From the NCBI GenBank assembly GCA_000004985.1, contig GG738926.1: DNA of 64,000 nucleotides. One strand, written 5' to 3'. Below are positions 7,630 through 52,585 of this stretch, in pieces (positions within the stretch are counted from its first letter, which is position 1; every line of letters begins with the position of its first letter). The notes below the pieces were generated by a model, which was not told where the DNA came from, ran no database searches, and saw only the letters and a list, made by a program, of their open reading frames with translations. This DNA comes from Naegleria gruberi (taxonomy: Eukaryota). The translations under genes and the position numbers were made by a program.

Positions 7630-8059
7630 TATTTTTTAAAGTTAATCAATAGAATGAACTCTTTCAATCGTTATTTGAATATATCCAAATTCCATTTTCA
7701 GAGATTTTCTTGGAATGAACTACTTCCATTTTTGGTCATTAATAAAAATATGCTGCTAGTGATGATTTACTGTCCACTTTGATTTTTATTACCAGTATTA
7801 CCAGTACATGGAAGGCGCAGAGTCCTATTCTTGGAGAGAATAACTTTTGATTGGCAGTTGATTTTTGAAAAATGTCTTTTTATCCATATTTGGACATTAA
7901 AATAAATATTATTTATTAAATTATTTACAAACTTGTCGGAATGTTATTTTCATTAAATTCAAAAATATTGTGAAAGTCAATTTGTCCATATTTGGAGTCC
8001 AAAAATATTATTTTAAATATTAATCGAAAAAGTATTCGGAATTTTCTTTTCAAAAAAAA

Positions 8060-14211: not shown

Positions 14212-15768
14212 ATGCTTCTATCAAATGTTGCTGAGTTGGCCAATTCTGTTGGCTCGGATTCGTCCGTTGGTTTATTCGGATATCCAATAATGATTGTTTC
14301 ACTTATTGGAATGTTGGGTTCTTTCTTCTTGTGGTATGCAAGAATGATTTTTGGCAATTTATTGTTTAGATGGATGTTTTATCAATTGAATTTGTCTGAT
14401 ACTTGCATTGAATATGCTTGGTTTAGTTTGTGGTTCTCACACCATCCTTATACCAAAAATGGAAGTACTCATGTTAAACCATTCCAAAAAACAACCAAAC
14501 TTAGAGTTAATAGAACAAATGAACCAAAGGAAGAAGACTCAATTGCCACTTCAAATATTTCAGAAATGATTTCCAATTTGAAAGTCAACTTTGTTCCGAG
14601 TTATGGAATTCACATCTTGTACAGAAATTCTGAACCACTCATAGTTTCCATTTCCATTAATACCAATCAAAATAATAATGCCTACAACACAGAGGAGAAA
14701 ACTCGTGAAGATATTGTCATTTGGAAACCAAGACATTTCCTCACTGATTACCTTATCAAATTTTTATTTCCATGTCAAGATGGAGTGAACAATTGTAATT
14801 CAGTAATTGATATGTTGGAAAAGGCAGGAGTTGCCAAAGAGTTCCTCTCCTTTAATCCAACCTATCCTCAATCTATTGAGAATGCCTACTCTGTATTTCG
14901 TGAATTATTGTGTGACTGTTTCTATGTCCATACTCTCATGACCAGAGAAAAGACCACAATTTACACACCTTATTTCTCCCAATGGGTTTTGGCATCTTTC
15001 AAGGAGAAACGTGCTCAACATACTGTCATTCTCGATGAAGGAGTTTGGGAAGATTTACACAATGACGTTTCCAAATTCTTAAAATCAAAGCAATGGTACA
15101 AAGATAGAGGAATTCCATACAGAAGAGGATATTTACTTTATGGAGAACCTGGATGTGGTAAGACAACGACCATCTCATCAATTGCTGCCTGTTTGAATAT
15201 GAATATTTGTGTATTTACCTTAGATTCTCAAACCAATGACACTTCATTGAATTCCTTATTTTCAACAGTTCCTCCAAATTCAATTCTTGTCTTTGAAGAT
15301 ATTGATTCAATCTTTCCAAAGGAAGAAGATGAGAAAAAGTCAGATTCTGCCACAGATGAAGTTTCACACGGTAGATCAGTTGTCAAGACCAATACCAAAA
15401 GTACATTTTCCACAATTTTGAATTGTTTGGATGGTATTTCATCTCAAGAATCGAGAATTGTCTTTATGACCACCAATTTTAAGGAGAAACTTCCACCTGC
15501 ATTGATTAGAAATGGAAGAATTGATAGAAAGATTTATTTGGGACTTGCCACAAAGCATCAATTCTACAAAATGACTCAAAACTTTTATCCTGAGGAATAT
15601 GTTAAGGAGAAAGTTGACGAAATGTGGGAAAATATGAAAGAATATAGTTTCGGAATGGCCAATTTGCAAGGTTTCTTTTTGAGAAATGAAACTTTGGATG
15701 CAGCTGTCAAATCTTCCAAGAATTTTGAAATGTACATGAAGGAGGAAGAAACTCAAACTCAATTGTAA
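14212..15768 (+). CDS. Mitochondrial chaperone BCS1-like AAA+ ATPase
   Basis: 518 aa. N-terminal TM/BCS1_N region, Walker A YLLYGEPGCGKTT, Walker B ILVFEDIDS, and a second-region-of-homology-like TTNFKEKLPPALIRNGRIDRKIYL. Confidence 0.85.
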   Translation: MLLSNVAELANSVGSDSSVGLFGYPIMIVSLIGMLGSFFLWYARMIFGNLLFRWMFYQLNLSDTCIEYAWFSLWFSHHPYTKNGSTHVKPFQKTTKLRVNRTNEPKEEDSIATSNISEMISNLKVNFVPSYGIHILYRNSEPLIVSISINTNQNNNAYNTEEKTREDIVIWKPRHFLTDYLIKFLFPCQDGVNNCNSVIDMLEKAGVAKEFLSFNPTYPQSIENAYSVFRELLCDCFYVHTLMTREKTTIYTPYFSQWVLASFKEKRAQHTVILDEGVWEDLHNDVSKFLKSKQWYKDRGIPYRRGYLLYGEPGCGKTTTISSIAACLNMNICVFTLDSQTNDTSLNSLFSTVPPNSILVFEDIDSIFPKEEDEKKSDSATDEVSHGRSVVKTNTKSTFSTILNCLDGISSQESRIVFMTTNFKEKLPPALIRNGRIDRKIYLGLATKHQFYKMTQNFYPEEYVKEKVDEMWENMKEYSFGMANLQGFFLRNETLDAAVKSSKNFEMYMKEEETQTQL

Positions 15769-16170: not shown

Positions 16171-17046
16171 ATGTCCGTTAAGAAGATAGTGCCTGTGAAT
16201 TCGGGCCAACAACAACATGTCGATACATCTTCATCATTTGCCGTTACGAGTCATAAAGTTCTCAGTCGTTTATCAAATATTAAGGCCTCCGAAGAACCTC
16301 TCACATCGGATGGTGGCAATAATTTTCACACAGGACGAGGATTCTGCGTAGACTCACTCTGTTCACTCAAGACAATGCTCATCTCATTTCTGGTGATCTC
16401 TCTCTTTATAACATGCCTCATCATTTGGATCATTTTAATGATTTTGTCTTCACAACAAGTTGAAATTTCAATGGGAATTGCCTCAATAGTCGTGTGGTGC
16501 ACATTCGTCGTATCTTTGATAGTATTTTCCATTCTGACATCTCTGGGAGTGTCCACTCTGATAAGGAAACCCATCACGGAATTAACTCGACAACTCTTTC
16601 GCATGAAAACATTAAGGTTTGACTCTGTGAAAAAGCTCAAATCCATTTTGTATGAATTCATTCCACTATTCACTGTGTTTTTCGATTTGAATAATTTAAT
16701 GAAGGATATTAGACCTTTCATTCCCGAATCCATCACTCGGCAGTCGGATGATGATGAAGCTGAACTTGAGGAACAACAAAGGGAAGAAGAACGAAAACAA
16801 TTACACATGATGCAATTGAGAAAATCCATCTTTTCTGCATCATCTGCTGGAATACCAACTCCTTCCATTGCTAATTCATCAGCAGCAAACAATGGTGGAG
16901 GTGGAGGATTGGCCATTCCACCCTCCATTCAACCTCCTCCAGCTGTGGCCACAATGACCATCAATGGACTTCCTCCTCCAAATCCAAATGTATCCGGCAC
17001 AGGATCTTCATCACCATCAATCCAATGCTTACAGTTTCCTCTGTGA
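16171..17046 (+). CDS. N-terminal membrane part of a putative class III nucleotidyl-cyclase-like protein (two TM helices + low-complexity linker)
   Basis: 291 aa with a true ATG. Two TM helices (LISFLVISLFITCLIIWIILMIL and IVVWCTFVVSLIVFSILTSLGV), then a Q/E/S/G/P-rich linker. The 3' end overlaps the next ORF in another frame, so this is probably the same gene (see next feature and findings). Confidence 0.45.
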   Translation: MSVKKIVPVNSGQQQHVDTSSSFAVTSHKVLSRLSNIKASEEPLTSDGGNNFHTGRGFCVDSLCSLKTMLISFLVISLFITCLIIWIILMILSSQQVEISMGIASIVVWCTFVVSLIVFSILTSLGVSTLIRKPITELTRQLFRMKTLRFDSVKKLKSILYEFIPLFTVFFDLNNLMKDIRPFIPESITRQSDDDEAELEEQQREEERKQLHMMQLRKSIFSASSAGIPTPSIANSSAANNGGGGGLAIPPSIQPPPAVATMTINGLPPPNPNVSGTGSSSPSIQCLQFPL

Positions 17047-18167
17047 ACAAATTAAGAAAGGCAGTGAGTAAGGTAGGAGTTGTGGTTGCACTCTCAAAGT
17101 CAAGAAAATCCTTTGCTTTGGAAGGGACACATGCTGTAAATCATCATGATTCTGTTAGTGATCATGGTAGTGTAAATAATTCAGTAGGTGCAGCAGCTGT
17201 TAAGGACGCTAATGCAGAGAGAACAGTTGGATTTTCACCTCAGCTGTCGAACAATTTAGGCCTAGGACTAACCTCACACATTACAACAATAATTATCATT
17301 CAATTTAGAAATTTTGATGGTAAATCGTATCCGAATACTGCTGATTTGCTTGCTGTATTTACATTACTCTTCCAAAAGGTTCAAAGTGCCAGCAGACAAT
17401 ATAAAGGAAGATGTTCGATTATTACACCAAAAGTTCTAATGGTTAGTTTTGATGTTGGAATGAATGTTGAAAGAAATGCTCTACTCTGTGCACTGCAGTT
17501 GGATAAACAAATGCAATCAGTCAATTCACAACTTGAAGAACAAGTCAACTTGCCAAAAATTGAGTATGGCATTGGAGTTTCTCGATCAGAATGTCTCGTA
17601 GGTAATGTTGGTACTTCAGCAGTGAGATTTGCAGCATTAATTGGTGCATGCTCGAGTAATGCATTGAGATTGGCTGCATTGTGTGCCTATTTTGGAACCT
17701 CAATTTTAACAGATGAATCCTTGGCATTGCCATTACAAACAGGATTCATCACAAGAGCTGTGCATTTCATGCAGAAGAAATCAATATTTGATAGTGAGAA
17801 ATTGAGTTTGGATGATGGAGGCGATGATCGTCAAGTGATTTATCAATTACTTGCTGAGAATCGTGTAAATGATGACGAATGGCTCTATGAATTGGAACAA
17901 CAGGAAAATAACAACAAATATAGAGAATTCGATCAGGCATTTGGGTTGTTGAGAGGAGATGTAAATATTGAACTGCTAGGTGAGATTTGTGAAGTGTTTG
18001 GAACCTATTCCACAAAGAATCCTCAAGATAAGGTTGTTTCCTTACTGTATACTCAATTGTCTGATTATTTAAAGCTAGATACGAAAGAAGTGGAAAGTGC
18101 TGTGAGGTCGTTTAGCTTGGAAAAGACTGATATTCCACTCCATACAGATCCATCATTTATTCTGTAA
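17025..18167 (+). CDS. Class III adenylyl/guanylyl cyclase homology domain (continuation of 16171..17046 via frameshift or unresolved intron)
   Basis: ITTIIIIQFRNFDG...ITPKVLMVSFDVGM...KIEYGIGVSRSECLVGNVGTSAVRFAALIGACSSNALRLAALCAYFGTSILTDES matches the CHD order: metal-Asp motifs, then [RK]IG[IV]..G....G.VG, then the N.A.R transition-state pair. The first codon in the track is not a credible independent start. Confidence 0.5.
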   Translation: MLTVSSVNKLRKAVSKVGVVVALSKSRKSFALEGTHAVNHHDSVSDHGSVNNSVGAAAVKDANAERTVGFSPQLSNNLGLGLTSHITTIIIIQFRNFDGKSYPNTADLLAVFTLLFQKVQSASRQYKGRCSIITPKVLMVSFDVGMNVERNALLCALQLDKQMQSVNSQLEEQVNLPKIEYGIGVSRSECLVGNVGTSAVRFAALIGACSSNALRLAALCAYFGTSILTDESLALPLQTGFITRAVHFMQKKSIFDSEKLSLDDGGDDRQVIYQLLAENRVNDDEWLYELEQQENNNKYREFDQAFGLLRGDVNIELLGEICEVFGTYSTKNPQDKVVSLLYTQLSDYLKLDTKEVESAVRSFSLEKTDIPLHTDPSFIL

Positions 18168-18392: not shown

Positions 18393-21300
18393 TTATTTGT
18401 TTTGTTGGTCATTGAGTTTAAATCCTAATTCCTGAGCGAGGGCTCCTGCATTGGTTCTCAAACTTCTTCGCTTCTTGTAAGCACTTCCATCTCTCAGTGA
18501 ATTCTCCAAACCTTCCAATACACCCTTTTCATTTGGCTTGAGACCAATACTGTTGGCATTGAGTTGCACAGATTTCTTTCTCATAGCTTCCTCTTCCTTC
18601 TTCTTTCTCTCTTGAATATATTTACGAGCTGACTTGAACATTTCAAAGAATTCGTCAAGTTTAGTGAAGAAATCTTCTGGCTTGTTGGTAACCATGGTCT
18701 TGTCTTCATCGAACAAGATGGCAATTTCTTCCAATCCTTCCAATGTCTTTTTCAATTTCTCTTCAAGCATGGCCAAATCAGTCTTGGTTTGTTCGTAGAA
18801 TGGTTTCATCTTTTCAATGAATTGATCTTGTTTGTTGATTTGATCAGCTTCATGTCTTTCCTTTTCCAAAGCTTCTAAAACATTTCCAAGAGCATTGGAT
18901 GAAGATCTGATATTTTGTAAACTTTCCTTAATTTGAGAAATTGAGGCCTTCTTGGCAGATGGAACATTTGGCAAATCATCGTAGAACATAGACAAATCCT
19001 TTTGGTTATTGTCAATGTATTCGACAAGGTAGTGCAACAAGGAGAAGCCATCACTGGACTTGGATTTGGTATCCTTCATCTTGTGAAGAGATGAAAGATG
19101 GAAACCATATTGATCCTTTTGTCTACCCTTTGCATTCAAATAGTTGGCAATTGACAAGACAACAGCAAGGAACTTGACAAACTTTTTAGATTCCTTGAGT
19201 TCAATAGTTGCCAATCTCAAACATTCAATATCTGGTTTCAAAGTGGACAAATCATCTTCATATCTCAACTTGAAGGTCCAAGCGTCCATTCTTTCCTTAA
19301 CTTTGGAAACATCCTTAACCTTGTAGAAGAAACAATCTGGATCTGACAATTGGGAAATGGAGCCTTCAAATGAAGCATAGGCATCACATTCTTCCTTTGT
19401 TGGAACAATGCTCTTCAGAATATTGATTTGATTCTTGTTGAGAACCTTTTCATCGAGTGCAATAATTCCTTGTTTGATAGTATCAACTGGCAAACGCATA
19501 GAAGCCAATTGAATACCAATATTGTAAGATCTCTTAGCATCGATGAATGATATTTTTTCATTGCTTTGCTTGTCACTTTGTTGAGATGGCTTATTGTGTT
19601 GATCCTTTTCGATGGTGAACAATTCTTCAATACGCTTTTCATCCAATTGAATTTGTTTGAGTCTTTCAATAACTCCCTTCTTGATAAAGATGGTATCCTT
19701 AACAACTCTCTTATTGATTGGATCAATATGAACATTTCTCAAATTGGCACTAGGATTGTAAGTTGGAAGTGCTGGAAGTGCTGGTTGAGCAACACCACCA
19801 AGCATACCAGGTGGAGGAGGCATCATTCCAGAACCAGGTGGAGGTGGGACGCCAACACCAGGAGGCATTGGAATACCTGTGCCTGGAGGAGGTGGAACAC
19901 CAACACCAGGAGGTGGAGGAGGAACCATTGTTCCTGGTGGAGGAGGAACTGATCCAGTTCCAATTGGTGGAGGAGGAACCATTACAGAAGGCACAACAAT
20001 AGCTTGTTCAACTGGTTGTTCAATAGTTGTTTCGACTGGTTTACCTGGAATGGTTGGAAGTGGCTTTCCTGTTGGAACAGGAAGTGATGGTGAGGAGGAT
20101 GATCCAGAAACAGTTTTAGTTGTTACTGATGTTACAATATCTTTCAACAATTCAAAATCATTTACATCAATAGAACCACCTTCATTGAGGGCTTTTGCGA
20201 GTTTTTCCTTTTCTGCCTTCAATTTTTGTTCCATATTTGTGAATTGAGTTTGTTGAGTTTTGACTTGTTGCTTTAAACGTTCAGTTTCTTCTCCCCAATT
20301 TCTGAGACGACCTTTCTGATCGACAGAATCAACAATTTGTTGAACTAATCCAGCCAAAACATGCCAATTTTCTTCTTGAATTGTATTATCAACACAAATA
20401 GAAGCACGTGAAACAATGGATGTACGGGTATCTTCATAGGATTGAGCAATTGAAAGGAATGAATTCAACATTTTTGTAAAGTACTTTTGAGAAATTTCAG
20501 ATAATTGTCCTAAAATAATTTCTGTCAATTCTGATGGATTTGAATCTACAATGGTCTTGAATTGTTCGAATCTATTCACATTTTCTTGATTAATTTCATC
20601 TTTGAAAGTGTTAATTTGAATTTGCAAATCAGGATCCGCAGAATCGATAGTATCCAAAACTCTTTCCAAATCCAAATTGATAAATTCTTGTTGAATCCTT
20701 GATCTCATCTTTGGATCGTCAGGAGTTGTCATTAAAGTGTTAATGAACATTAAAGCATTGACACGAAATTCAGTGCAAGCTCTTCCATGTCCTCCACCAG
20801 TGTACATAATTCCAGTGGCTGTAGTTCCACTTGCATAACTATTTTCACTCAAAATCCATTCAGCCAAATTTTGGAATCTCTTCTTTTCTCTCTTGACGAG
20901 TTTGTAATGATTCATAGCATCGAGAATGAGTTCAAATGCATCTTGTCCACTGTGATGACACAAGAGAGCAAGTAATAACAAGATGGTTGATCTGTTTTTA
21001 AGTGAAGATCCATCTAATACAAGTACCATAGTTCTGTTTTTAACAAATTTGTATGATAATTAAGTTTCATTTCAATTAAATGTAAAATTATATGAAAATT
21101 ATAAAACTTTCCATTAATATTTTCAGAAACTTACCTAATTGAATCTCTTTGACTCAAAAATGATTTAATACCAGCATCCACATTGAGCAAACTTGTAAAA
21201 CTCATTAAAATACTTGTACGTAATTGTTCAACATTATTCAAACTAGTTTGATGAACACCATTTCCACCATTATCAGTCGATGTAGAATAATTTCCAAACA

Positions 21301-22057: not shown

Positions 22058-22738
22058 GATGACGATCTAGTAATTTTTAAAATTATTCGAAAATAGACTA
22101 AACTATCATTAACGAAATTGTTGCGTTAATTTTTTCACTGGTGATAGCACAATTTGACAGGGTGATTGGTGGATATGAAACGATTTCTTTCTATTTCGGT
22201 CAACATCTATCATCAATCCTATCAACATCATCCCCAACTATTCGAAACCAAGAACGAATCTTATCTACAGCCACTATTTTATTAAGATCTTCATTTAGTC
22301 ATTATGTATTCAACCCTTTCCACACGCATCTTGTTCTTTATAAAATCTTATTCGAAACTCAAAAATCAGACAACTTTCCACTACTGTAAACTGAAGATTT
22401 ATCTTCATCATCGTCAGTCCACAAAGCATAAATTCCACTACTCAATTCTCGTTTTCCATTTTGGTTGACTTTATAAAATGATCCTGGTTCGTTTTCATCT
22501 TCAAATAAAAGTTTGGAAATGTCAAGAGGTTTGACACGTGTGTTTTCAATGAGATATTGAGCTAGTTCTTCATGATTGTTCATGTATGATATTTCGATGG
22601 GTCTGAATTGGAAGTTGATTGCTTGTTTGTGAGATTCTACATCGAGGAAACCTTCACTTCCTGTGTGTTTCTGGTATGTTATTGGAATCGAATAGGAATT
22701 AGTTTGAAACTTACATATTTCTGGGCAAGTTAGAATTT

Positions 22739-24120
22739 TTACAGAATGAATAGAGGACTACTTACAATAGGAGGACCTAACAGGTCTGGTTTCAAGTCCT
22801 TTCTCATATTTACAAATAATTTAACAATTTCTAAATCTCCTTTCGAACAAAGCTCATAAAATACGAAACCTCTATTAACATCCAAGTCTTTTCTAGAAAG
22901 TAATTTAGTGATTACTTCAAATTTGGTTTGGTTACTCAATTTGATGGCGCTTTTCAATATTAACCCATCTTCAATATTCAAATCAAGATTTGTATTCGTA
23001 AGGAAACGTGAAAGAATTTCAGAATTTTCTAAACAATAAGCAAGTGGACAACCTTGATTGATATCAATGTTTGGATTATTCAGAAATAGCTGCACCATTT
23101 CAAGATTACCAGATTTACAAACTTGAACAAACGATTGACATTCGTTTGGATTAGTTTTTGAGTTTTCCAACAATATTCCAATAATGTCCATACTATGATT
23201 ATCATCCAGAGCTATTCTCAGTGGTGTTATGTGCTCAATCTTATCCAAACTATCTCTCAAAATATGTGGAAACTTTTCAAATAGGTTCGTCTCTGAAACT
23301 TCCTTAATTCCAAAATTAGTATCAATATTTGGCTTTTTCAAAATCAATTTCACAATGTGTTTGCTCGCCTTCTTCATTGCCAGAAACAGTATCGACCTGC
23401 CATGTAATTCTGAAACACTCGATGTCCCAAATGTCAAATATCCTGCATATCCCTTATTAATATCAATGTCACTCCTTCCCATCAAAATCTCAGCAGTTGA
23501 ATAATGACCATTCTCAATAGCCACATACAAAGCTGTCTTGGCACATGGAAAAATCAAATCACCTTCAGATTTATGCTTCTTCTCATGAATTTTCAAATCA
23601 CTTTTCGATTTTCTAAATTCGTCTTGTCCCTTCTTTACATCATTCTTTTGGAAATTTAAAATTTTTGTAATTTTAAATGGAAAATTACTTACAATCTGAA
23701 TAATGGTCAAATTTACAAATTAAAATTCACTAAAATTGACAAGAAACTTACTCTTTCAATTTGAATTGAAAATTTGTTCACTTGAATGTGATTCGAATTA
23801 TTGAACGAAAGTAGCAGCTTGACAATTTCATCGTGACCTCTTTTACTGGCCAAATAGAGTGGAGTTTTGGTTGAATAGGCATTATCACATCCCAAATTAA
23901 TATCCAAATCAGGACATTCTAATAATTTATGAATAATCGAAAGGTCACCTCCGAAATGTTTAATTGCTTCGTATAAAAGCGAATGACCTTTATCATTTAG
24001 TTGGTTGATGATGTGGTTTAATTTCATGTGGGAAAGTTGTTCCACCTTTCCTTGTTGAATGAGTTCGAATGCATGATGCTTTCGGTAGGAATCTAATAGA
24101 AACATTTTTTTTAATGTCAA
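22739..24120 (-). CDS. Ankyrin-repeat protein (2 exons resolved, possible additional 3' exons)
   Basis: Exon 1 ~23751..24105 has its true ATG at 24105 (MFLLDSYRKHH...); the track starts at a TTG. A GTAAGT donor is at ~23745-23750 and the acceptor ...ccaaaag| is at ~23655. Exon 2 runs down to 22739. It contains multiple ANK repeats (TPLYLASKRGHDEIVKLLL; TALYVAIENGHYSTAEILM; NPNIDINQGCPLAYCLENS...). A GTAAGT at ~22770-22775 just before the in-frame stop suggests splicing to downstream exons, including the ORF 22359..22583. Confidence 0.7.
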
Positions 24121-34950: not shown

Positions 34951-37900
34951 ATGAGATCTCACAACATCATTGGCTGTTTTTTATTTACCCTGCTATTTAT
35001 TATGATTTTTGGCAGCTGGGTTTCCAATGCCGCTGTATCAATAGATGTAAATTATAATATCTACCAATTAGTTGCCTCTTTCTACAATATCAGATCTATG
35101 GACTTTGACAAGCAAAATAATATCCTGTACATTGTCGGCGCTAATAACAAGGTTGTAAAATATACTGCTGCAAGTGGTACGACTGAATATGATGCATCAG
35201 CATATACTCCTTATGGCATTGCTGTCAATTCTACAAGTGCCTATTTTTCAGTATTTAATCCAGCTTCATTAAAAAAGTGGGACGGAGCTGTAGGAACCTC
35301 ATCTTATCATCTCATTATGCCAGGTTCAGTTTCTACATCAGGTTCAGATGATATAGTAGCAAATTCTTCATTGACGACGAAGCCGAAATATATGAGAATA
35401 TCATCAACCACAGGTGATTTATACTTTACGGAAGCATGCAGAGTGAGAAAAATATCAAATGGTATGGTTCGTGCTGTTGCAGGTAAAACTACTTGTACTT
35501 CCTCATCAGGAGATGGTGGTTCAGCCACAAATGCAGAATTTAATGGAGCTCCATATTATATTGCCTTAACACCAGAAGATGATTTACTTGTCATGGATAA
35601 TGTAAATAGACTGAGAAAAGTTAGCAATGGCACAATTACTACAATTCTATCACCTACCTCTTGTAGAGGTCTTGCTGTCGGTACTAATGGAGATATTTAC
35701 ATAATAGGTAAGTAATTGGATAAGAGCAAATTTCAATAATTATTATGTAGATGATCAAGTAGTTAGTAAGGTGAGGAATGGAGTTTCAACCACTATTGCT
35801 GGTGGTGGTGGAACTTCAACGAGCTCTTTTTCCTCAAATGATCCTCTATCATATGGTTTTGCTTATGCAGAACTCAGTGATATTGTCGTTGGTGTGAATA
35901 ATAGTCTTTATTTTGTTGCTGATCAGAAGTTATTCAAATTAGAACCTTATTGCAGTTCAGGTTATGTACTTTCACCTGATTATACTATTTGCTATCCTGT
36001 CTGCTTTAATACAGTAGCAACATCTCAATCAGTGTGCTCTAATTCAAATGGTACCTGTATTGCTCCTGATACATGTTCTTGCAAAGCTGGTTATACTGGT
36101 TCCAAATGTGAAATTCCAATCTGTTACGGATTACTCTCCAATGACACAGCCAATGCTTGCAGTGGAAGAGGATCTTGTGTAGCAAAGGACACTTGTGTCT
36201 GTCAACCAAATTATTCTGGACTTGCTTGTAATATCACTACCTGTTCTTCAATTTCTAGTACCAGTGCAAATGTTTGCTCTAGAAGAGGGTCATGCACTGC
36301 CTATAATACTTGTACTTGTTCGCAAAATTATTATTATGGAACAGATTGTCAAAATACTTACTGTTATTCAATTTCCTCTACTGATTCAAGTGTTTGTAGT
36401 GGACATGGTAACTGCTTAGATTATAATCAATGTTCTTGTTCTTCAAAATGGTATGGTTCCTATTGTAACATCACAGAATGCTTTTCTATGTTAAGTAACT
36501 CTTCAAATGTTTGTTCAGGTGCTGGTACTTGTAATTTGCCAAATAATTGTACTTGTAATGCTGGATATAATGGAACTAATTGTGAAAACTTTGATTGTTT
36601 CGGAGTGTCTGTGAATAGTGGCCAAAGTGCATGTCAACACAATGGAACATGCTCAGGACCTGGAGCTTGCTCTTGCTTGCCAACATACTATGGAAAAATT
36701 TGTGAAATATCAACTTGTTATGGTATATTGAGCAATTACTCTAGTGTTTGTTCAAGTCATGGAACCTGCACAATGTTGAATACTTGTGAATGCAGCCAAA
36801 ATTATTATGGAAATAATTGCAGCTTCCCTATTTGTTATGGAATAACATATGATGATACTAGTGTATGTTCTGCTCGCGGAAAATGTATTGGCGGAAATAA
36901 TTGTAAATGTAATAATGGTTATACTGGAGCTAATTGCGAGCTCAATATTTGTTATGGTGTTAACTCTGACCAATCTAATGTTTGCTCTTCACGTGGTTCA
37001 TGTGGTGCACCTGATTCATGTCAATGTACTAATGGATACAGAGGTCCAAATTGTCAATATGTTGAAATGATAATGGACGCCAAAGCGGCAGTTTTATCTA
37101 CAGCAGTCTCCAACGTAATAGCTTCCTATGCTCCTAAAACAGCAACATCTTGCAGTTCTATTTTCTCCTCAAAGGATTTGACATATCTTGGCTCCTCGGA
37201 AACTGTCAGATGTATTTGGAATCAAAACACATTCAAAATTTATTTAGGCTACAGACACTTTGTTTATGATAATATGACCATGGATATCTTTGGTAATGGC
37301 ATGAATTTCACTTTGCAAGTAGTCTTGACAAAGGCCATACAAGATAGTGCCAGTGCTTCTATTTCCATATTACCTCAACTATCTAAGGTACCAAAAACAG
37401 CAATTATTGTTAAATCTTACTCACCATTTGTTTTCCAAGCTTTTAGAAATACTTCAATTGCTTGGTCTAACTCAGGTAATACCGATATCTCTACATTGCT
37501 TTCAGGAATGAGCAACAAACCAGTGGTAGTCATTCCTTCTACAGAAATAACCTCAGCTTCAACCAAATTTTCCTTAAATGTAACAGGTAAAAACTGGATT
37601 GGTGCCACTTCAACTAGTGCAAAAGTTGATATTGATTATACTGCAGCCTATCCATACTTTGAATTAGTATCGGAGACAAGTGGTAGTCAATTTACTTGTT
37701 CTGGTTTTGACTGTATTATTGAAGTTAATCCGTATGTTACACCAACTCCTACAGTCTATTTTGATGTACCATTCAATGCTCTCAATAGTGGTTCTGGAGA
37801 TTATGTAATTAGATTTTTGAATAGAGTTGGCTCTACCATTCTAAACAGTTACTATGAGGGTTCAATGAAACTTCAAACAACCTCTAGTGCCTTAACCTAT

Positions 37901-40900
37901 ACAATGTCCTACACTGGCTTTGAAGAAGTGCCAATCGTGTTGCTCAATACTGAAAAACAATACTATGGAAACAAACTCACAATTACTGCTTCTTTTATTG
38001 ACCCGATGGTTGAATATTTGTTGAGTAGTAATAGTATTAGTGTTTCATGGTTTTGTTTTAGAGGTACTTCAAAGACTGGTCCTTTTTCTGCCTATGACTG
38101 TACTTCTCAAACTAAGGAATTAATCATTGGAGAATCTAACCTTATTGAAGGATACCATCAATTCCAATTCACAGCCACTTTGACAAATTCAAAAATCACA
38201 TCCGTTACCAAAACAGCAATTGTGCAAGTTGTTAAAACAAATATTCCAGATATTCTCTTTGACTCTGTTCCTCCAGTTTATCCATCATCAAGAAACTTGG
38301 TATTGAATGCAGTTATTTCTTCTTCCACGCAAATCGGTAGCGTTGTGTGGCAAGTAACCAAGGGTAATTTACTCAATGAGAATATTCTTAGTCAATCAAG
38401 TACTCTCTCATTGGATGGATACAATATCAAATCAACTTTGGTTATTGACAAGTCTTATTTATTACAAGGTGATTCTTATACATTCACTGTTACTGCTTCC
38501 AATGGTATTGGCTCTTCAACTGCAGCTGTTTCAACTGTTATTGATGTAGCTCCAAGAATTGCTTGTCAAGCCTATGACGCAGCCATAACCAATTCCGTTA
38601 TCTATGCTTACTCTAGTGATGTGGTAATTGATTGTGCTTCACTCTCTGACTACTCAATTGCTTCCTATCATGTCGATATATATGCCAACTCAACCAGGGT
38701 AATGACAGTATCTAAAACAATGAAAAAGACTTTTATTACAAAGGTACCATACGGTCCAAATGGAAATATCAGACTGGATGTACGAGCTGTAAACAAGATT
38801 GGATCTATTTCATCTGCTTCTATTGATCTCAAGGTTTCTCTTAAAAATACTGATAACACCCTCGCTGGAAGAATTGGATTTGCTAGTTCTGAATATGAAA
38901 GCAACAAAGCAAGCTTTACAAGATTAGAAAGTGTTGTTACTATGCATTCTTTATTGTTACTTATTATTCAACAAAATTCTGTTAGTGAATTTGCCAGTAT
39001 AGACTCTACAGCCAAAACTACTCTCACCACCTTGATAACCAATATGTTAACTACTTTGAGTGGTCTGAAGAGTATTAGTTACAACGCAGATGACAAATTA
39101 GCTCCTGTTTTTATTCCATTTGCAAATGATGCTTACAGGTTACTTGCTGTTATTTCTCCAACTACAGTGGCTTCCAATGCTGATCTACTCACTTGGGTTA
39201 AATTCTTCATAACGTCATTCAATGATTACAAGACATATTATAGATCTACAGTTGTACCTACTATTTACGACTCTAAACACTTGACAGAAATTGATTCCTT
39301 GATAGGTATTGGCGCAAAGTATATTAGTGATAGTAGTTTCAGTCCATTATATAAGGAAACAGCTATTATTTCCAAATTGATTACTGACGTTACCAATTCC
39401 ACAACAACGACAACCTCCACCATCGTGGATTCCAGTGGTACGGAGACAAGATTTGATATTGTTGACAGAATTCAACAACTGAATGCCAAGACAATTACAT
39501 TCGCTAATTATCCTTCAATTTCTATTTCCTTCCCATCAGATTTCTACTCACAACTCGGTGTTGAAAATTCAGGATCAGGAGTAACCCTCACTTCTGCTGT
39601 TTCAACCTCTAAATATTCCCAACTAGTAAGCCCTTCTGTTGATATTTCTCTTTCTACCTCTTCAGACGCTGTTATTTCTGTGAGTGGATTGCAAGGAAAT
39701 TTGATTCAAATCAATTTTGGCACCTTATCACAACCTAAAGCTAACTTTACCAGTTACAATTATACTTGCAGATTCTTGAATACTACCTCATCACAATGGA
39801 GTCAGTCAGGAGTGTCAAGCTCTATTTCCATTTTGTCAGATGATGGCCAAACTGTCACCTTTTCTCTTTCATGTTTAACTTCTCACTTGACTTCTTTCGG
39901 AGTTGTTTCTGCTATCATCCCTCCAACATCACAATCTAAAACAGTAACAACAGATAATACTGGTGTTGTTGTTGGTGCTGTTTTGGGTACACTCTTGCCA
40001 TTGATTTTGATAGCTGTTATTGTTGTCGTAGTGGTGATAATTGTAATTATTTTATACAAGAGAAAGAAATCTCTCGACTCATCACAAGTTCAAAATGTTG
40101 AATTGGTCAATAAGAATGTTTCAAGTGTTCATATTAGTGACTTCCCTTCAGAAGAAAGCACTCACTTTAAGCAATTGGTTAGTGTATCTTCTGGATCTAC
40201 TAATTCTGATCCACTTGCAAGATATGCTGATATGGTAAAGATTGGACAAGGCGCATTCGGAAGTGTGTTCAAAGGTGTTGATACAAAGCAAGCAGGAAAG
40301 TTGAAGGCCATCAAGGTTATTAGATTTAATTCTGTTGGTGAATTGAACAATATGCTCAAAGAAGGAACTATGCTCATGAACATTGATCACCCACATATTC
40401 TAAAAGTCAACGAGTTTATTATTGACAAAGATAACATTCTCTGTATTGACACAGATTTCTGCGAAGATGGTGATTTGACCAAGCTTACTCTTTCTGCAGA
40501 GCCAATCCCAGAACCAATCATCAAACAAGTAATTTATCAAATGTGTTCTGCTTTGGCCTTTATTCACAACAAGCTCAAGATTATTCACAGAGATGTTAAA
40601 CCACACAACATTTTCTTGAAAGAATTGACAGATTTTTCAGTTCAAACAGTTTTGGCTGACTTTGGTCTTGCTAAACAAGATCAAAACAACAGCATGAATT
40701 CATATGCTGGTACACCACTTTGTAAGTTTTTATTTTTAATTATTTAATTAACAACCAATTAAATAGACATGAGTCCAGAACTTGCCCTTGGAGGTAAATA
40801 TAACTATAATACTGACACTTGGTCTCTTGGTGTTGTAGCCTATCAATTAATGACTAAAGATATCACAACTGCTCTAAGTCATTTGTGCTTAACAGGAGAT

Positions 40901-50903: not shown

Positions 50904-52585
50904 TTGAAAATGCTCAATACAACACTTCATAAACAGAAAAAGAAGGTGAGCAAGAAATCTCAACCTAAAATTCACCAAATTACCATCTCTAAATATATCA
51001 ATGATAAATATGCTCTAAAATCTGTTGAATTGGGAACTGGTTCCTTTGGGGATGTTTATTTGGGAGAGGAAACAGATCCGATCACTAGAAAGAAGAGAGA
51101 TGTGGCTATTAAGAGAGTGAGATTGGAAAGATATGGTCCTGAACATTTCAAATATTTGGTGGCAGAAATTGAAATTATGGCTGGTTGTCAAAATGAGTTT
51201 GTCATGTCACTTGTTGATAAAATTGAAATTCCAAGAAAGGAACTCTATTTGGTAATGGACTTGTGTGAGGCAAATTTTAAATATTACATGAATAATGCAC
51301 GAAAGAGGAGGCAAGATAAGAGATTGCCTTTACTTTCAGAGAAGGAAATTCAATATTGGATAAAACAAATTAGTAGTGGATTGGGATATTTACATTTGGA
51401 AAAGAAGATTTGCCATCGTGATATTAAACCACATAATTTGCTACTCAAGAAAAAGGGTCACGAAGTTGCTTTTGATTTCTATGCCAAGATTGGAAATTAT
51501 GATGAATATACCATTCTGATTAGTGACTTTGGTCTTTCCAAAGTGTTGGATAGCAATCCAATTGCAGAGACAATTCTTGGAACTCAATGTTATAGATCTC
51601 CACAGCTGGCACTCTTCCAACCATACTCATTCGATGCAGATATATTTGCTTTGGGTGTGGTGCTGTTTGAAATGATTGCTGGTTACTGCTTGTTTGGTGC
51701 TCAAGTTACTAATCCAAAGCCAAAATATGGTGAAATTATTAGTACTTTAACAGAGAATATTGACTGGAGCTTTTTATCTGATGCACTTGATATTTCTCCA
51801 GAGCTGGTAGATCTTCTCTCTGGCATGTTACAATTTGAAGTGGAGAAACGTTTGAATATTGAACAAATTTTGCAACATCCCTTCCTTAATATGGATTTTT
51901 CAGAAAGTGAAGTTACTACTACCAGGTCATTCCATCTGAAACTATACCAACTGTATCATATATTGAAATTCCTCTTACTACCACTACTACAACTGACAAT
52001 GATTCTCCAAACAACTCAACTCAACAACAGCAACAAGTTCCTGTACAAATTATACTACCAACCAGCGAGGAAGAAAAAGAAAAAGAATTGCCAGTTAACG
52101 AACCAATCCAAGTAATACAGTTGGAACGTGATGAGCCAACTCCTACAACCTTTTCAGAATTTGTCTCCTTCTCCTATGAAAGAGTTGGACTGCCCCAAGA
52201 TTATACACGAGTAAGCATTATCAAGGATGAGATTGGTTGTGAACCTGCCCTTGTTAAAACTGAAAAAATTTCCAAGAGCAAACACTCCAAAGTTCTCATT
52301 CTTCTCAGCAGTGACAGCAACAAGGCAATTAATTATTCAATCAAGGTACTAGAGTCGCCAGTCAAACACACACAAACAGGAACAGTTTCTTCTACTGTGG
52401 AATATGAATTGGAGAATATTGAAATGGAAATGATTACTCTAGAGTTTGAATTTACTCATTCTCTCACCAACAGATGGCTTTCTTATTTCACAACTCCAGA
52501 ACAGATTCCATTCACTATTGAAATTTATGTTCAATCGAGAATTCCAGAACATACCTCAACTCTTTCTATTGAATCAATCAATTAA
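50904..52585 (+). CDS. Ser/Thr protein kinase with C-terminal extension (two ORFs joined by a frameshift or undetected short intron near 51900)
   Basis: Kinase ORF 50904..52115 shows LGTGSFGDVYLG / VAIKRV / HRDIKPHNLLL / ISDFGLSK / YRSPQ...DIFALGVVLFEM. The +1 frame opens immediately after a TGA at 51908-51910 and continues to 52585 (T/Q-rich linker, then a ~150-aa globular tail). The kinase frame beyond ~51910 becomes low-complexity L/Y-rich. Confidence 0.7.

What the first reader, a model, noticed from the sequence alone, without database searches (positions are those of the whole stretch)
16171..18167. Split locus encoding a compact two-TM class-III cyclase-like protein
ORF1 (two TM helices + linker) and ORF2 (cyclase homology domain with plausible metal-Asp, substrate and N...R transition-state motifs) overlap by 22 nt in different frames at 17025-17046, inside a low-complexity P/S/G-rich region. 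This is either one gene with a 1-nt assembly error or unrecognised short intron, or a decaying paralogue of the larger amoebozoan adenylyl/guanylyl cyclases. Two TM helices + one CHD, if real, would be a distinctive minimal membrane cyclase.
Basis: partly seen in the sequence, partly recalled or inferred. Interest (0 to 1): 0.5.

Follow-up and report, generated by a model that had tools for sequence, protein, structure and literature searches.

The report
Frame-broken membrane pseudo-cyclase gene in Naegleria
The two overlapping reading frames are one Naegleria gruberi gene, broken by a single missing base, for a membrane-anchored protein with an adenylyl/guanylyl cyclase fold that has lost the residues needed to make cAMP or cGMP, so it is a divergent and probably inactive member of a known gene expansion, not a new minimal cyclase.

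Summary
ORF1 (16171-17046) and ORF2 (17025-18167) overlap by 22 nt in different frames. The window is Naegleria gruberi (Heterolobosea), not an amoebozoan.

N. fowleri, N. lovaniensis and environmental homologues encode both halves in one ORF. In N. fowleri the two homologous genes are single-exon, and one lies next to the same formin gene. So this is one gene with a -1 frame break.

Codon usage places the break at about 17016-17030. The linker is GC-rich and coding-like, and it has no GTAAGT donor like the real 43-nt intron elsewhere in the window. An intron is therefore very unlikely. Whether the missing base is an assembly error or a recent real mutation cannot be decided here.

It is a sensor-less member of a large Discoba family of dCache receptor-type cyclase-like proteins whose catalytic positions are unconstrained. 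It is most likely a non-catalytic pseudo-cyclase. Interest is modest.

The parts
16171..17046 (+). ORF1: the N-terminal half of the gene. It holds a cytosolic N-terminus, a two-helix membrane hairpin, a HAMP-like segment and the start of the linker. The last ~6-10 codons (up to QCLQFPL*) are out-of-frame read-through.
   Evidence: ORF; 36-43% identity to the N-terminal halves of P0004, P0005, P0007, P0008, P0009 and P0010.
16372..16452 (+). Predicted transmembrane helix 1 (residues 68-94).
   Evidence: Kyte-Doolittle 19-residue window above 1.6, peak 3.1. Conserved in the homologues.
16474..16563 (+). Predicted transmembrane helix 2 (residues 102-131). Only 7 residues (QQVEISM) separate it from helix 1, so there is no extracellular sensor domain.
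   Evidence: The larger relatives carry a dCache_1 domain between the two helices.
16564..16731 (+). HAMP-like juxtamembrane segment, RKPITELTRQLF...YEFIPLF...NNLMKDIRPFIPES (residues 132-187), ending in the family-wide F-[IVL]-P-E motif.
   Evidence: Conserved across the superfamily (listing). Pfam HAMP is not detected. hhalign against bacterial HAMP is weak: E=0.012, probability 3.6%.
16732..17249 (+). Acidic, then P/S/G-rich low-complexity linker of about 170 residues between the HAMP-like segment and the cyclase-fold domain. It crosses the frame break and is predicted disordered.
   Evidence: pLDDT below 30 and no secondary structure for ORF2 residues 1-85. GC is 47-51% and GC3 is 0.26 in the ORF1 frame.
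17016..17030 (+). Most likely position of the -1 frame break: one nucleotide missing relative to an intact reading frame.
   Evidence: The codon-usage change-point maximum is at 17016-17030. The conserved motif in the ORF2 frame starts at 17037.
17025..18167 (+). ORF2: the C-terminal half (rest of the linker, cyclase homology domain, helical tail, stop codon). Public annotation covers only 17511-18167, as a 218-aa 'predicted protein'.
   Evidence: P0002 is 100% identical over 218 aa..
17037..17072 (+). The SSVNKLRKAVSK motif, conserved in the paralogues in frame with their N-terminal halves. It fixes the downstream limit of the frame break.
   Evidence: P0001 SAVDKLRNAVSK. (P0010 SVAKLKRAMSK)..
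17265..17858 (+). Class III cyclase homology domain (model residues 8-205), catalytically degenerate.
17301..17303 (+). Gln93 (CAA) at the position of metal-binding Asp 1.
   Evidence: hmmalign with the CyaB reference. Coordinates. Same residue in all N. fowleri, N. lovaniensis and environmental members.
17430..17432 (+). Lys136 (AAA) at the position of metal-binding Asp 2. Ile133 (17421-17423) sits at the substrate Lys/Glu position.
17634..17669 (+). Helix alpha-4 region: Ala204 at the purine-specifying position, Ser211 at the transition-state Asn position (Asn212 is one residue out of register), and Arg215 retained.
   Evidence: Asn212 is Thr and Arg215 is Lys in P0009.
17871..18164 (+). C-terminal helical domain. 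It begins with the superfamily-invariant DEW-x-YE motif (17874-17891) and is followed by a TPR-like helix pair.
   Evidence: W213 is invariant and E212/Y215 nearly so in A2. Helices 213-306 are modelled at pLDDT about 90. In the Pfam scan of the 30 members of A2, each TPR family (TPR_1, TPR_2, TPR_21) was matched by only one member.

Best explanation
The locus is a single Naegleria gruberi gene of about 665 codons. It lies beside the same formin gene as N. fowleri FDP41_011863 and is probably its orthologue.

Protein layout:
- a cytosolic N-terminus of about 67 residues;
- a two-helix membrane hairpin with a 7-residue outer loop, so no sensor domain;
- a HAMP-like juxtamembrane segment;
- a disordered linker of about 170 residues;
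- a class III cyclase homology domain (CHD);
- a helical, TPR-like tail.

In this sequence the frame is broken by one missing nucleotide at about 17016-17030, inside the low-complexity linker. This is not an intron. I cannot tell whether the missing base is an assembly or consensus error or a very recent real mutation, and I rate the two about equal. Either way the coding capacity of both halves is intact.

The CHD keeps the fold but has Gln and Lys in place of the two metal-binding aspartates. It also lacks both substrate-specifying residues and the transition-state Asn. It therefore cannot form a canonical active site, either as a homodimer or as the metal-donating or substrate-binding half of a heterodimer (inferred).

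It is a sensor-less member of a large Discoba family with the layout dCache, TM, HAMP-like, CHD-like, DEW-YE/TPR. In that family the catalytic positions vary freely while other positions are invariant (GLGL, GN-G, RP, DEW-YE).

Most likely mechanism (inferred, not shown): a membrane-tethered, dimerising pseudo-cyclase that acts as a scaffold, regulator or nucleotide-binding module rather than making cAMP or cGMP.
For: One gene:
- Homologues P0004 (574 aa), P0005 and P0007 (637 aa), P0008 (590 aa) and P0009 cover both ORFs in one chain.
- In N. fowleri locus L001, both copies are single-exon and FDP41_011863 abuts a formin gene on the opposite strand, as in the window at 18393-21029.

Break position and nature:
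- Codon-usage change-point at 17016-17030.
- Linker GC3 is 0.26 in the ORF1 frame against 0.66 in the ORF2 frame, and GC is 50.7% over 16895-17034.
- The conserved SSVNKLRKAVSK motif starts at 17037 in the ORF2 frame.
- The only donor-like pentamer in 16701-17100 is at 17064, inside conserved codons.
- A verified intron in the same window is 43 nt, 23% GC, GTAAGT...TAG.

CHD:
- Profile against PDB, E=7e-21 to 1e-12 for many class III cyclases.
- 16 of the 30 members of alignment A2 hit Pfam PF00211 at E<=0.01.

Degenerate site:
- Window residues at the six canonical positions are Q, I, K, A, S, R. The N. fowleri and N. lovaniensis members and paralogue P0001 carry the same six; environmental P0008 differs at two positions (Ser for Ala204, Lys for Arg215).
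- Across 49 family members (48 relatives plus the window), Asp 1 is kept once and Asp 2 eleven times.

Family:
- 1684 relatives at E<=1e-3.
- dCache_1 is present in the larger members.
- Sources are Naegleria, Willaertia, the diplonemid Artemidia and metagenomes.

No decay: 18/124 deviations at invariant columns, against 21/136 for paralogue P0001.
Against: - No read, trace or transcript data were available, so the origin of the frame break is unresolved.
- All three N. gruberi family members have incomplete public models. The C-terminal tail of P0010 reads as a frame-shifted version of the conserved FSPQ..NLGLGL motif (my reading). This hints at real disruption of the family in this strain rather than random error.
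- Inactivity is inferred from sequence only. Asn212 next to the canonical Asn position, Arg201 next to the aligned phosphate-Arg position, and Arg215 are retained. An unconventional active site or heterodimer partner cannot be excluded.
- The HAMP assignment is not statistically supported.
- The catalytic-column table for distant members depends on an HMM alignment at 20-25% identity.
Confidence: 0.75

Rival explanations
1. The frame break is a genuine mutation. The locus is a recently inactivated pseudogene, or it encodes only a truncated 291-aa membrane protein. This would be part of a decay of the family in N. gruberi strain NEG-M.
For: - The break is not in a homopolymer.
- The other N. 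gruberi paralogues also lack full-length models. P0010 (302 aa) and P0006 (220 aa) lie on one contig, and P0001 starts at an internal Met.
- The tail of P0010 is a -1-frame reading of the conserved FSPQ..NLGLGL motif. That is a second break, at a different place in the linker.
- N. fowleri and N. lovaniensis copies are intact.
Against: - Both halves remain open for 291 and 380 codons.
- There is no excess of substitutions at invariant columns relative to P0001.
- A protein-kinase gene in the same window has the same kind of -1 break in a triplet-repeat run. This fits a technical deletion bias in low-complexity sequence.
Confidence: 0.42
2. The frame break is an assembly or consensus error, or a minor-allele indel. 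The organism carries an intact full-length gene.
For: - ORFs are intact on both sides, and all family-invariant residues are retained.
- A second -1 break of the same type lies in an unrelated gene 35 kb away.
- Every break seen needs the same correction: one base missing.
Against: - No homopolymer at the site.
- Random errors would not be expected to hit two, perhaps three, paralogues of one small family.
Confidence: 0.5
3. An unrecognised short spliceosomal intron of length 3n+2 joins the two ORFs.
For: - GT...AG pairs of the right length class exist, for example 16895-17034 or 16901-17034 (140 and 134 nt), ending in a plausible ttacag acceptor.
- N. gruberi introns can be as short as 43 nt.
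Against: - The candidate donors are GGTGGAGG, not GTAAGT.
- The candidate intron is 50.7% GC with ORF1-frame codon periodicity.
- Genuine introns here are 23% GC.
- The N. fowleri homologues have no intron.
- Other candidates delete the conserved SSVNKLRK motif.
Confidence: 0.03
4. It is an active, minimal two-TM membrane adenylyl or guanylyl cyclase.
For: - True CHD fold.
- Arg215 is retained and Asn212 is adjacent to the canonical Asn.
- UniProt labels the orthologues 'Guanylate cyclase domain-containing protein'.
Against: - Both metal-binding Asp are replaced, by Gln and Lys, and both substrate-specifying residues by Ile and Ala, at conserved family positions.
- These positions are unconstrained across the wider family.
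- A disordered linker of about 170 residues replaces the helical transducer that couples membrane domains to active CHDs.
Confidence: 0.06
5. Two independent genes, or a programmed -1 ribosomal frameshift or termination-reinitiation that produces both a short and a fused product.
For: - ORF2 has an ATG at 17025, inside the overlap.
- The required shift is -1.
- A second paralogue appears to need a -1 shift too.
Against: - I saw no X XXY YYZ slippery heptamer when reading the overlap sequence (inspected by eye, no motif search run).
- Orthologues are continuous ORFs.
- The two breaks are at different, non-homologous linker positions.
- To my knowledge, no such mechanism is known in Naegleria.
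Confidence: 0.03

Closest known systems
Naegleria fowleri FDP41_011863 / FDP41_011864 and N. lovaniensis C9374_000916 / 000917 (uncharacterised 'Guanylate cyclase domain-containing proteins')
   Same: Same architecture: N-terminal M-x-[RK]-[IV]-x-P, two-TM hairpin, HAMP-like segment with the FIPE motif, linker, degenerate CHD, DEW-YE helical tail. ORF2 is 49-54% identical to them. The six residues at the catalytic positions are identical. FDP41_011863 lies next to the same formin gene.
   Different: The N. fowleri genes and N. lovaniensis C9374_000917 are continuous full-length ORFs (the C9374_000916 model lacks the membrane hairpin); the window copy is frame-broken. The window linker is longer and more P/S/G-rich. 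N. fowleri and N. lovaniensis have a tandem pair, while the window has one copy.
dCache_1 receptor-type cyclase-like proteins of Heterolobosea and other Discoba (e.g. N. lovaniensis C9374_006834 = P0013, Willaertia magna ABK040_000219 = P0021)
   Same: Homologous from TM2 to the C-terminus (E 1e-33 to 1e-10). They share the HAMP-like segment, the F-x-P-E motif, GLGL, GN-G, RP and DEW-YE. Their catalytic positions are also largely non-canonical.
   Different: They carry an extracellular dCache_1-like domain of about 300 residues between the two TM helices. The window protein has a 7-residue loop and so no sensor. Some of them still pass the Pfam Guanylate_cyc threshold; the window protein does not.
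Bacterial class III adenylyl cyclases with TM-HAMP-CHD layout (P0164, P0166, P0167; mycobacterial Rv3645-type enzymes, from my own knowledge)
   Different: The bacterial enzymes keep D, D, K/E, D/T, N, R (visible as FLDVRGFT, IGDAAM, GDAVNLAQR). They link HAMP to CHD by a short helix, not a disordered linker of about 170 residues. Their HAMP is detected by Pfam, whereas here it is not.
Known non-catalytic CHDs: the Pseudomonas aeruginosa class III adenylyl cyclase-like ATP-binding protein (PDB 6yii), and the degenerate half-sites of mammalian AC C2 / sGC beta
   Different: C2 and sGC-beta keep the substrate-specifying and Asn/Arg residues and complement a partner. The window CHD lacks those too, keeping only Arg. 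6yii is a soluble bacterial transcription regulator. No binding data exist for the Naegleria family.
Dictyostelium ACG / ACA / GCA
   Same: Eukaryotic membrane proteins containing class III CHDs. ACG also has two TM helices and one CHD (my own knowledge).
   Different: No specific relationship was found. They do not appear among the named relatives. ACG has a large extracellular sensor and an active CHD. The host organism is not an amoebozoan.

Membership tests
Class III nucleotidyl cyclase catalytic domain (CHD, Pfam PF00211) | Sequence homology to the CHD family | tested here: met
   The single sequence fails Pfam (no hit at E<=1). The nine-sequence profile A1 (window plus its closest relatives) hits Cya2 at E=1e-4. 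The 30-member profile hits CyaB at 7e-21, Cya2 at 1.3e-19, and bPAC, sAC, AC8/9 and sGC. 16 of the 30 members of alignment A2 hit PF00211 at E<=0.01.
Class III nucleotidyl cyclase catalytic domain (CHD, Pfam PF00211) | CHD fold | tested here: met
Class III nucleotidyl cyclase catalytic domain (CHD, Pfam PF00211) | Two metal-binding aspartates | tested here: not met
   Gln93 and Lys136 occupy these columns. The same holds in every member of the close family.
Class III nucleotidyl cyclase catalytic domain (CHD, Pfam PF00211) | Substrate-specifying pair (Lys/Glu, and Asp/Thr/Cys/Gly) | tested here: not met
   Ile133 and Ala204.
Class III nucleotidyl cyclase catalytic domain (CHD, Pfam PF00211) | Transition-state Asn and Arg, spaced i and i+4 on helix alpha-4 | tested here: inconclusive
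   Arg215 is in register. The Asn column is Ser211, with Asn212 one residue off (N-x-x-R instead of N-x-x-x-R). Asn212 is Thr and Arg215 is Lys in P0009.
Class III nucleotidyl cyclase catalytic domain (CHD, Pfam PF00211) | Cyclase activity (ATP or GTP converted to cNMP) | not testable with these tools
   Requires an enzyme assay.
HAMP domain (Pfam PF00672) | Two amphipathic helices of about 50 residues directly after the last TM helix, with the conserved Pro in AS1 and an E-x-x-x-L...F-N-x-M-like AS2 | tested here: inconclusive
   Position and pattern fit by eye (RKPITELTRQLF...YEFIPLFTVFFDLNNLM, listing). But there is no Pfam hit, and hhalign against three bacterial HAMPs gives E=0.012, probability 3.6%, over AS1 only.
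Discoba dCache receptor-type cyclase-like family (uncharacterised) | Homology across the HAMP-like segment, CHD-like domain and DEW-YE tail | tested here: met
   Profile search: 146 representatives at E<=1e-10, many matching profile positions about 80-560. Invariant G8, G120, G123 and W213 are shared.
Discoba dCache receptor-type cyclase-like family (uncharacterised) | Extracellular dCache_1 sensor between the two TM helices | tested here: not met
   The loop between the TM helices is 7 residues. dCache_1 is found only in the larger relatives.
Spliceosomal intron at the ORF1/ORF2 junction | GTAAGT-type donor, AT-rich, non-coding composition, length 3n+2 | tested here: not met
   No such donor in 16701-17063. 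GC is 47-51% with codon periodicity. The reference intron at 35708-35750 is 23% GC.

The most novel reading that the evidence does not exclude
The whole Discoba family (over 1,600 cluster representatives) would be a receptor class in which the cyclase fold has been repurposed as a non-catalytic signalling or ligand-binding module. In it the catalytic positions are unconstrained, while GLGL, GN-G, RP and DEW-YE are invariant. The window gene would be its sensor-less form. On top of that, the -1 breaks seen at the linker between the HAMP-like segment and the CHD in two N. gruberi paralogues would be real, so that the membrane half and the soluble pseudo-cyclase half are made as separate products.
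Probability: 0.1. Interest if true: 0.55.

Novelty: new variant of a known kind. Interest (0 to 1): 0.3.

Why it matters
Naegleria species are credited with dozens to about a hundred 'adenylate/guanylate cyclases', taken as evidence of rich cAMP/cGMP sensing (PMC9928731 counts at least 81). This locus and its relatives suggest that part of that count consists of cyclase-fold proteins that cannot be canonical cyclases. That would change how the signalling repertoire of these amoebae, including the pathogen N. fowleri, should be read.

For annotation, the N. gruberi locus is currently represented only by a 218-aa fragment. The full gene model, once the frame is corrected, is about 665 aa.

The finding does not reveal a new kind of minimal cyclase.

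Tried and rejected
- Pfam on the two ORFs alone gave no cyclase or HAMP hit even at E<=1. Single-sequence methods are blind here.
- The first AlphaFold2 run, with a 9-sequence alignment, gave an unusable model (pLDDT 44). Only the 30-sequence alignment worked.
- Exact-sequence look-ups of ORF1, ORF2, P0001, P0002 and P0010 in public assemblies returned nothing. So there was no independent read, contig or transcript evidence, and no DNA for the N. gruberi paralogues.
- The third homologue search, using the profile, was capped at 8000 candidates and returned mostly bacterial cyclases.
- The afdb50 fold library was unavailable.
- Enumerating every GT/GC...AG pair of length 3n+2 that restores one ORF gave many formal solutions, but none with a Naegleria-like donor that also keeps the conserved motif.
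- hhalign of the juxtamembrane segment against bacterial HAMP was inconclusive.
- tblastx of the formin region against N. fowleri matched in all frames and could not be used to map introns. I calibrated introns on 35708-35750 instead.
- Programmed frameshifting was considered and set aside: I saw no slippery heptamer in the overlap when reading the sequence, and the orthologues are continuous.
- A literature search found no paper describing this family or pseudo-cyclases in Heterolobosea within the held library. The N. gruberi genome paper is not in the library.
Full report
OBSERVATION
ORF1 (16171-17046, 291 aa) and ORF2 (17025-18167, 380 aa) exist as described. They lie on the + strand in different frames and share 17025-17046, 22 nt. 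Three-frame translation shows that the ORF2 frame is already open from 16875, so 172 nt are open in both frames. With about 38% GC, the chance of 291 or 380 stop-free codons is about 2e-9 or 5e-12. ORF1 has two strongly hydrophobic segments, residues 68-94 and 102-131, separated by only 7 residues.

ORGANISM
The C-terminal 218 residues of ORF2 are 100% identical to a Naegleria gruberi 'predicted protein' (P0002). All close homologues come from Naegleria or from environmental sequences. The window is therefore heterolobosean (Discoba), not amoebozoan. ORF1 has no identical public protein, so it is unannotated. Its only hit was the paralogue fragment P0010.

ONE GENE
N. fowleri P0004 (574 aa) and P0005 (637 aa), N. 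lovaniensis P0007 (637 aa), and environmental P0008 (590 aa) and P0009 each cover both ORFs in a single chain. By tblastn, their N-terminal parts align to the window in the ORF1 frame up to about 16850. Their C-terminal parts align in the ORF2 frame from 17001-17250 onwards.

In the N. fowleri genome, P0005 and P0004 are adjacent single-exon genes. P0004 is followed by a formin gene on the opposite strand. In the window the locus is likewise followed by a formin ORF on the minus strand, at 18393-21029. The window gene is thus syntenic with, and probably orthologous to, FDP41_011863. The window holds only one copy.

NATURE OF THE BREAK
Going from the ORF1 frame to the ORF2 frame needs one extra nucleotide, or removal of 3n+2 nucleotides.
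- The motif SSVNKLRKAVSK begins at 17037 in the ORF2 frame. It is conserved in paralogues that read it in frame with their N-terminal halves: P0001 has SAVDKLRNAVSK and P0010 has SVAKLKRAMSK. The switch must therefore lie upstream of 17037.
- Across the linker (16852-17037), third-position GC is 0.26 in the ORF1 frame and 0.66 in the ORF2 frame. The corresponding coding-frame value for the ORF2 core is 0.27.
- A codon-usage change-point analysis, trained on 15 long ORFs of the window, puts the switch at 17016-17030.
- The stretch that would have to be an intron (for example 16895-17034) is 50.7% GC, against 31-33% for flanking non-coding DNA.
- I verified a genuine intron in the window. Removing 35708-35750 (43 nt, 23% GC, GTAAGT...TAG) fuses two ORFs into one continuous frame. 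Two further intron-like GTAAGT sites lie on the minus strand.
- In 16701-17100 the only GTAAG/GTATG/GTGAG pentamer is at 17064, inside the conserved A-V-S-K codons and downstream of the ORF1 stop.
- Among all GT/GC...AG pairs that restore one ORF, none combines a plausible donor with retention of the conserved motif.

An intron is therefore very unlikely. The break is a single missing base in a low-complexity run (...tcatcaccatcaatccaatgctta...).

ERROR OR REAL MUTATION?
This could not be resolved. No independent contigs or transcripts were retrievable.

For an intact gene:
- Both halves are fully open.
- At columns invariant among the N. fowleri, N. lovaniensis and environmental members, the window copy deviates at 18 of 124 positions, against 21 of 136 for paralogue P0001. 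Most of these changes are shared and conservative.
- A protein-kinase gene at 50904-52585 shows the same type of -1 break, inside an ACT-triplet run with no intron signal.

For a real lesion:
- The site is not a homopolymer.
- The other N. gruberi paralogues also lack full-length models. P0010 (N-terminal half) and P0006 (C-terminal fragment) lie on one contig. The last 13 residues of P0010 (VSHLKSQPIWVLD) can be read as a -1-frame translation of the conserved FSPQ..NLGLGL motif. This is my inference; no DNA was available. P0001 starts at an internal Met.

I rate the two about equal.

THE CYCLASE HOMOLOGY DOMAIN
Single-sequence Pfam fails. A profile of the nine close relatives reaches Cya2 (2w01) at E=1e-4, over 53 residues only.

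An exhaustive profile search found 1684 relatives at E<=1e-3 and 146 at E<=1e-10. Most are proteins of about 800 residues with a dCache_1-like extracellular domain. Some pass the Pfam Guanylate_cyc threshold: P0013 at 27 bits and P0021 at 32 bits. They come from N. fowleri, N. lovaniensis, Willaertia magna, the diplonemid Artemidia motanka and metagenomes.

CATALYTIC RESIDUES
I used the explicit HMMER alignment to CyaB and hmmalign with CyaB and Cya2 as references.
- Metal Asp 1: Gln93
- Substrate Lys/Glu: Ile133
- Metal Asp 2: Lys136
- Purine-specifying Thr/Asp: Ala204
- Transition-state Asn: Ser211 (Asn212 is adjacent, giving N-x-x-R instead of N-x-x-x-R)
- Transition-state Arg: Arg215, retained

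The same six residues occur in the N. fowleri and N. lovaniensis members and in P0001. P0008 and P0009 have Lys for the Arg, P0008 has Ser for Ala204, and P0009 has Thr for Asn212. Across 49 family members (48 relatives plus the window), Asp 1 is kept once and Asp 2 eleven times. Every catalytic column is highly variable. By contrast G8/L9 (GLGL), G120-N121-x-G123, R171 and E212-W213-x-Y215 are invariant or nearly so.

D98 is not conserved: it is N in P0005/P0007 and Y in P0009.

The domain lacks the metal ligands, and it also lacks the residues a 'C2-type' partner would contribute. It therefore cannot build a canonical site either as a homodimer or as half of a heterodimer. This step is inferred from established class III cyclase mechanism.

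REST OF THE ARCHITECTURE
- The segment after TM2 (RKPITELTRQLF...YEFIPLF...NNLMKDIRPFIPES) looks like a HAMP domain and is conserved family-wide, with an F-[IVL]-P-E motif. Neither Pfam nor hhalign (E=0.012, probability 3.6%) supports it statistically.
- About 170 residues of acidic, then P/S/G-rich sequence separate it from the CHD. These are predicted disordered (pLDDT below 30). There is no helix directly upstream of strand 1 in the good model. The rigid helical coupling used by active HAMP-CHD or TM-CHD cyclases therefore seems absent (inference).
- The C-terminal 95 residues form a well-modelled helical bundle that starts at DEW-x-YE. In the Pfam scan of the 30 members of A2, each TPR family was matched by only one member.

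INTERPRETATION

The eukaryotic dCache-cyclase architecture is already noted in the literature at the domain level (PMC8915833). Naegleria 'cyclase' counts of at least 81 are published (PMC9928731). I found no description of this subfamily or of its catalytic degeneracy in the held library.

VERDICT
The intron, the amoebozoan affinity and the 'minimal active cyclase' reading are not supported. Novelty is limited to a divergent, probably inactive variant within a known superfamily, plus a correction to the gene model. Interest 0.3.

Noticed in passing
window 50904-52585 (+), break about 51910-51930: A protein-kinase ORF (frame 0) continues as coding-like sequence in frame 2 (VIPSETIPTVSYIEIPLTTTTTTDNDSP...). 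The switch lies inside 'gaagttactactaccagg', with no GTAAGT donor. This is a second -1 frame break of the same type as the one under study, again in a low-complexity run.
   Followed up: partly
window 35708-35750 (+): A genuine 43-nt intron (GTAAGT...TATGTAG, 23% GC). Removing it fuses ORFs 34951-35715 and 35771-40747 into one uninterrupted frame. It is useful as a calibration of how short and AT-rich N. gruberi introns are.
   Followed up: yes
window about 23640-23720 and about 22700-22770 (- strand): Two more intron-like GTAAGT sites between three consecutive minus-strand ORFs (24186-23713, 23719-22739, 22757-22359). Exact boundaries were not determined.
   Followed up: partly
window 18393-21029 (-) and upstream to about 21960: A formin gene (FH1 poly-proline run, FH2) next to the cyclase-like gene, as in N. 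fowleri. Its N-terminal exons lie upstream of 21029, but tblastx matched in all frames, so the exon structure was not resolved.
   Followed up: partly
L001 8001-9914 and 10400-12124 (N. fowleri): N. fowleri, and by locus-tag adjacency N. lovaniensis, carry a tandem pair of these genes. The N. gruberi window has only one copy at the syntenic site. The other N. gruberi paralogues (P0001, P0010/P0006) are on different contigs.
   Followed up: partly
Protein ends of the family (window 16171-16200 and 18150-18164; P0004, P0005, P0009, P0013, P0021, P0025): Conserved extreme N-terminus M-x-[KR]-[IV]-x-P-[LIV] and, in the close subfamily, a conserved C-terminal [ST]-x-[FS]-[IV]-L. These may be trafficking or docking motifs. 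No function is known.
   Followed up: no
window 16326-16928 (-): A 200-aa antisense ORF runs through the linker region. It is rich in S, C and P and is most likely a by-product of the GC-rich low-complexity coding sequence, not a gene.
   Followed up: no
window 14212-15768 (+): The upstream neighbour is a 518-aa ORF with an AAA-ATPase-like P-loop motif (GEPGCGKTT) in its C-terminal half; it looks BCS1-like by eye, and no family search was run on it. The genes upstream of the N. fowleri locus are different (a 292-aa gene, a kinase, a homeobox gene), so synteny holds only on the formin side.
   Followed up: no
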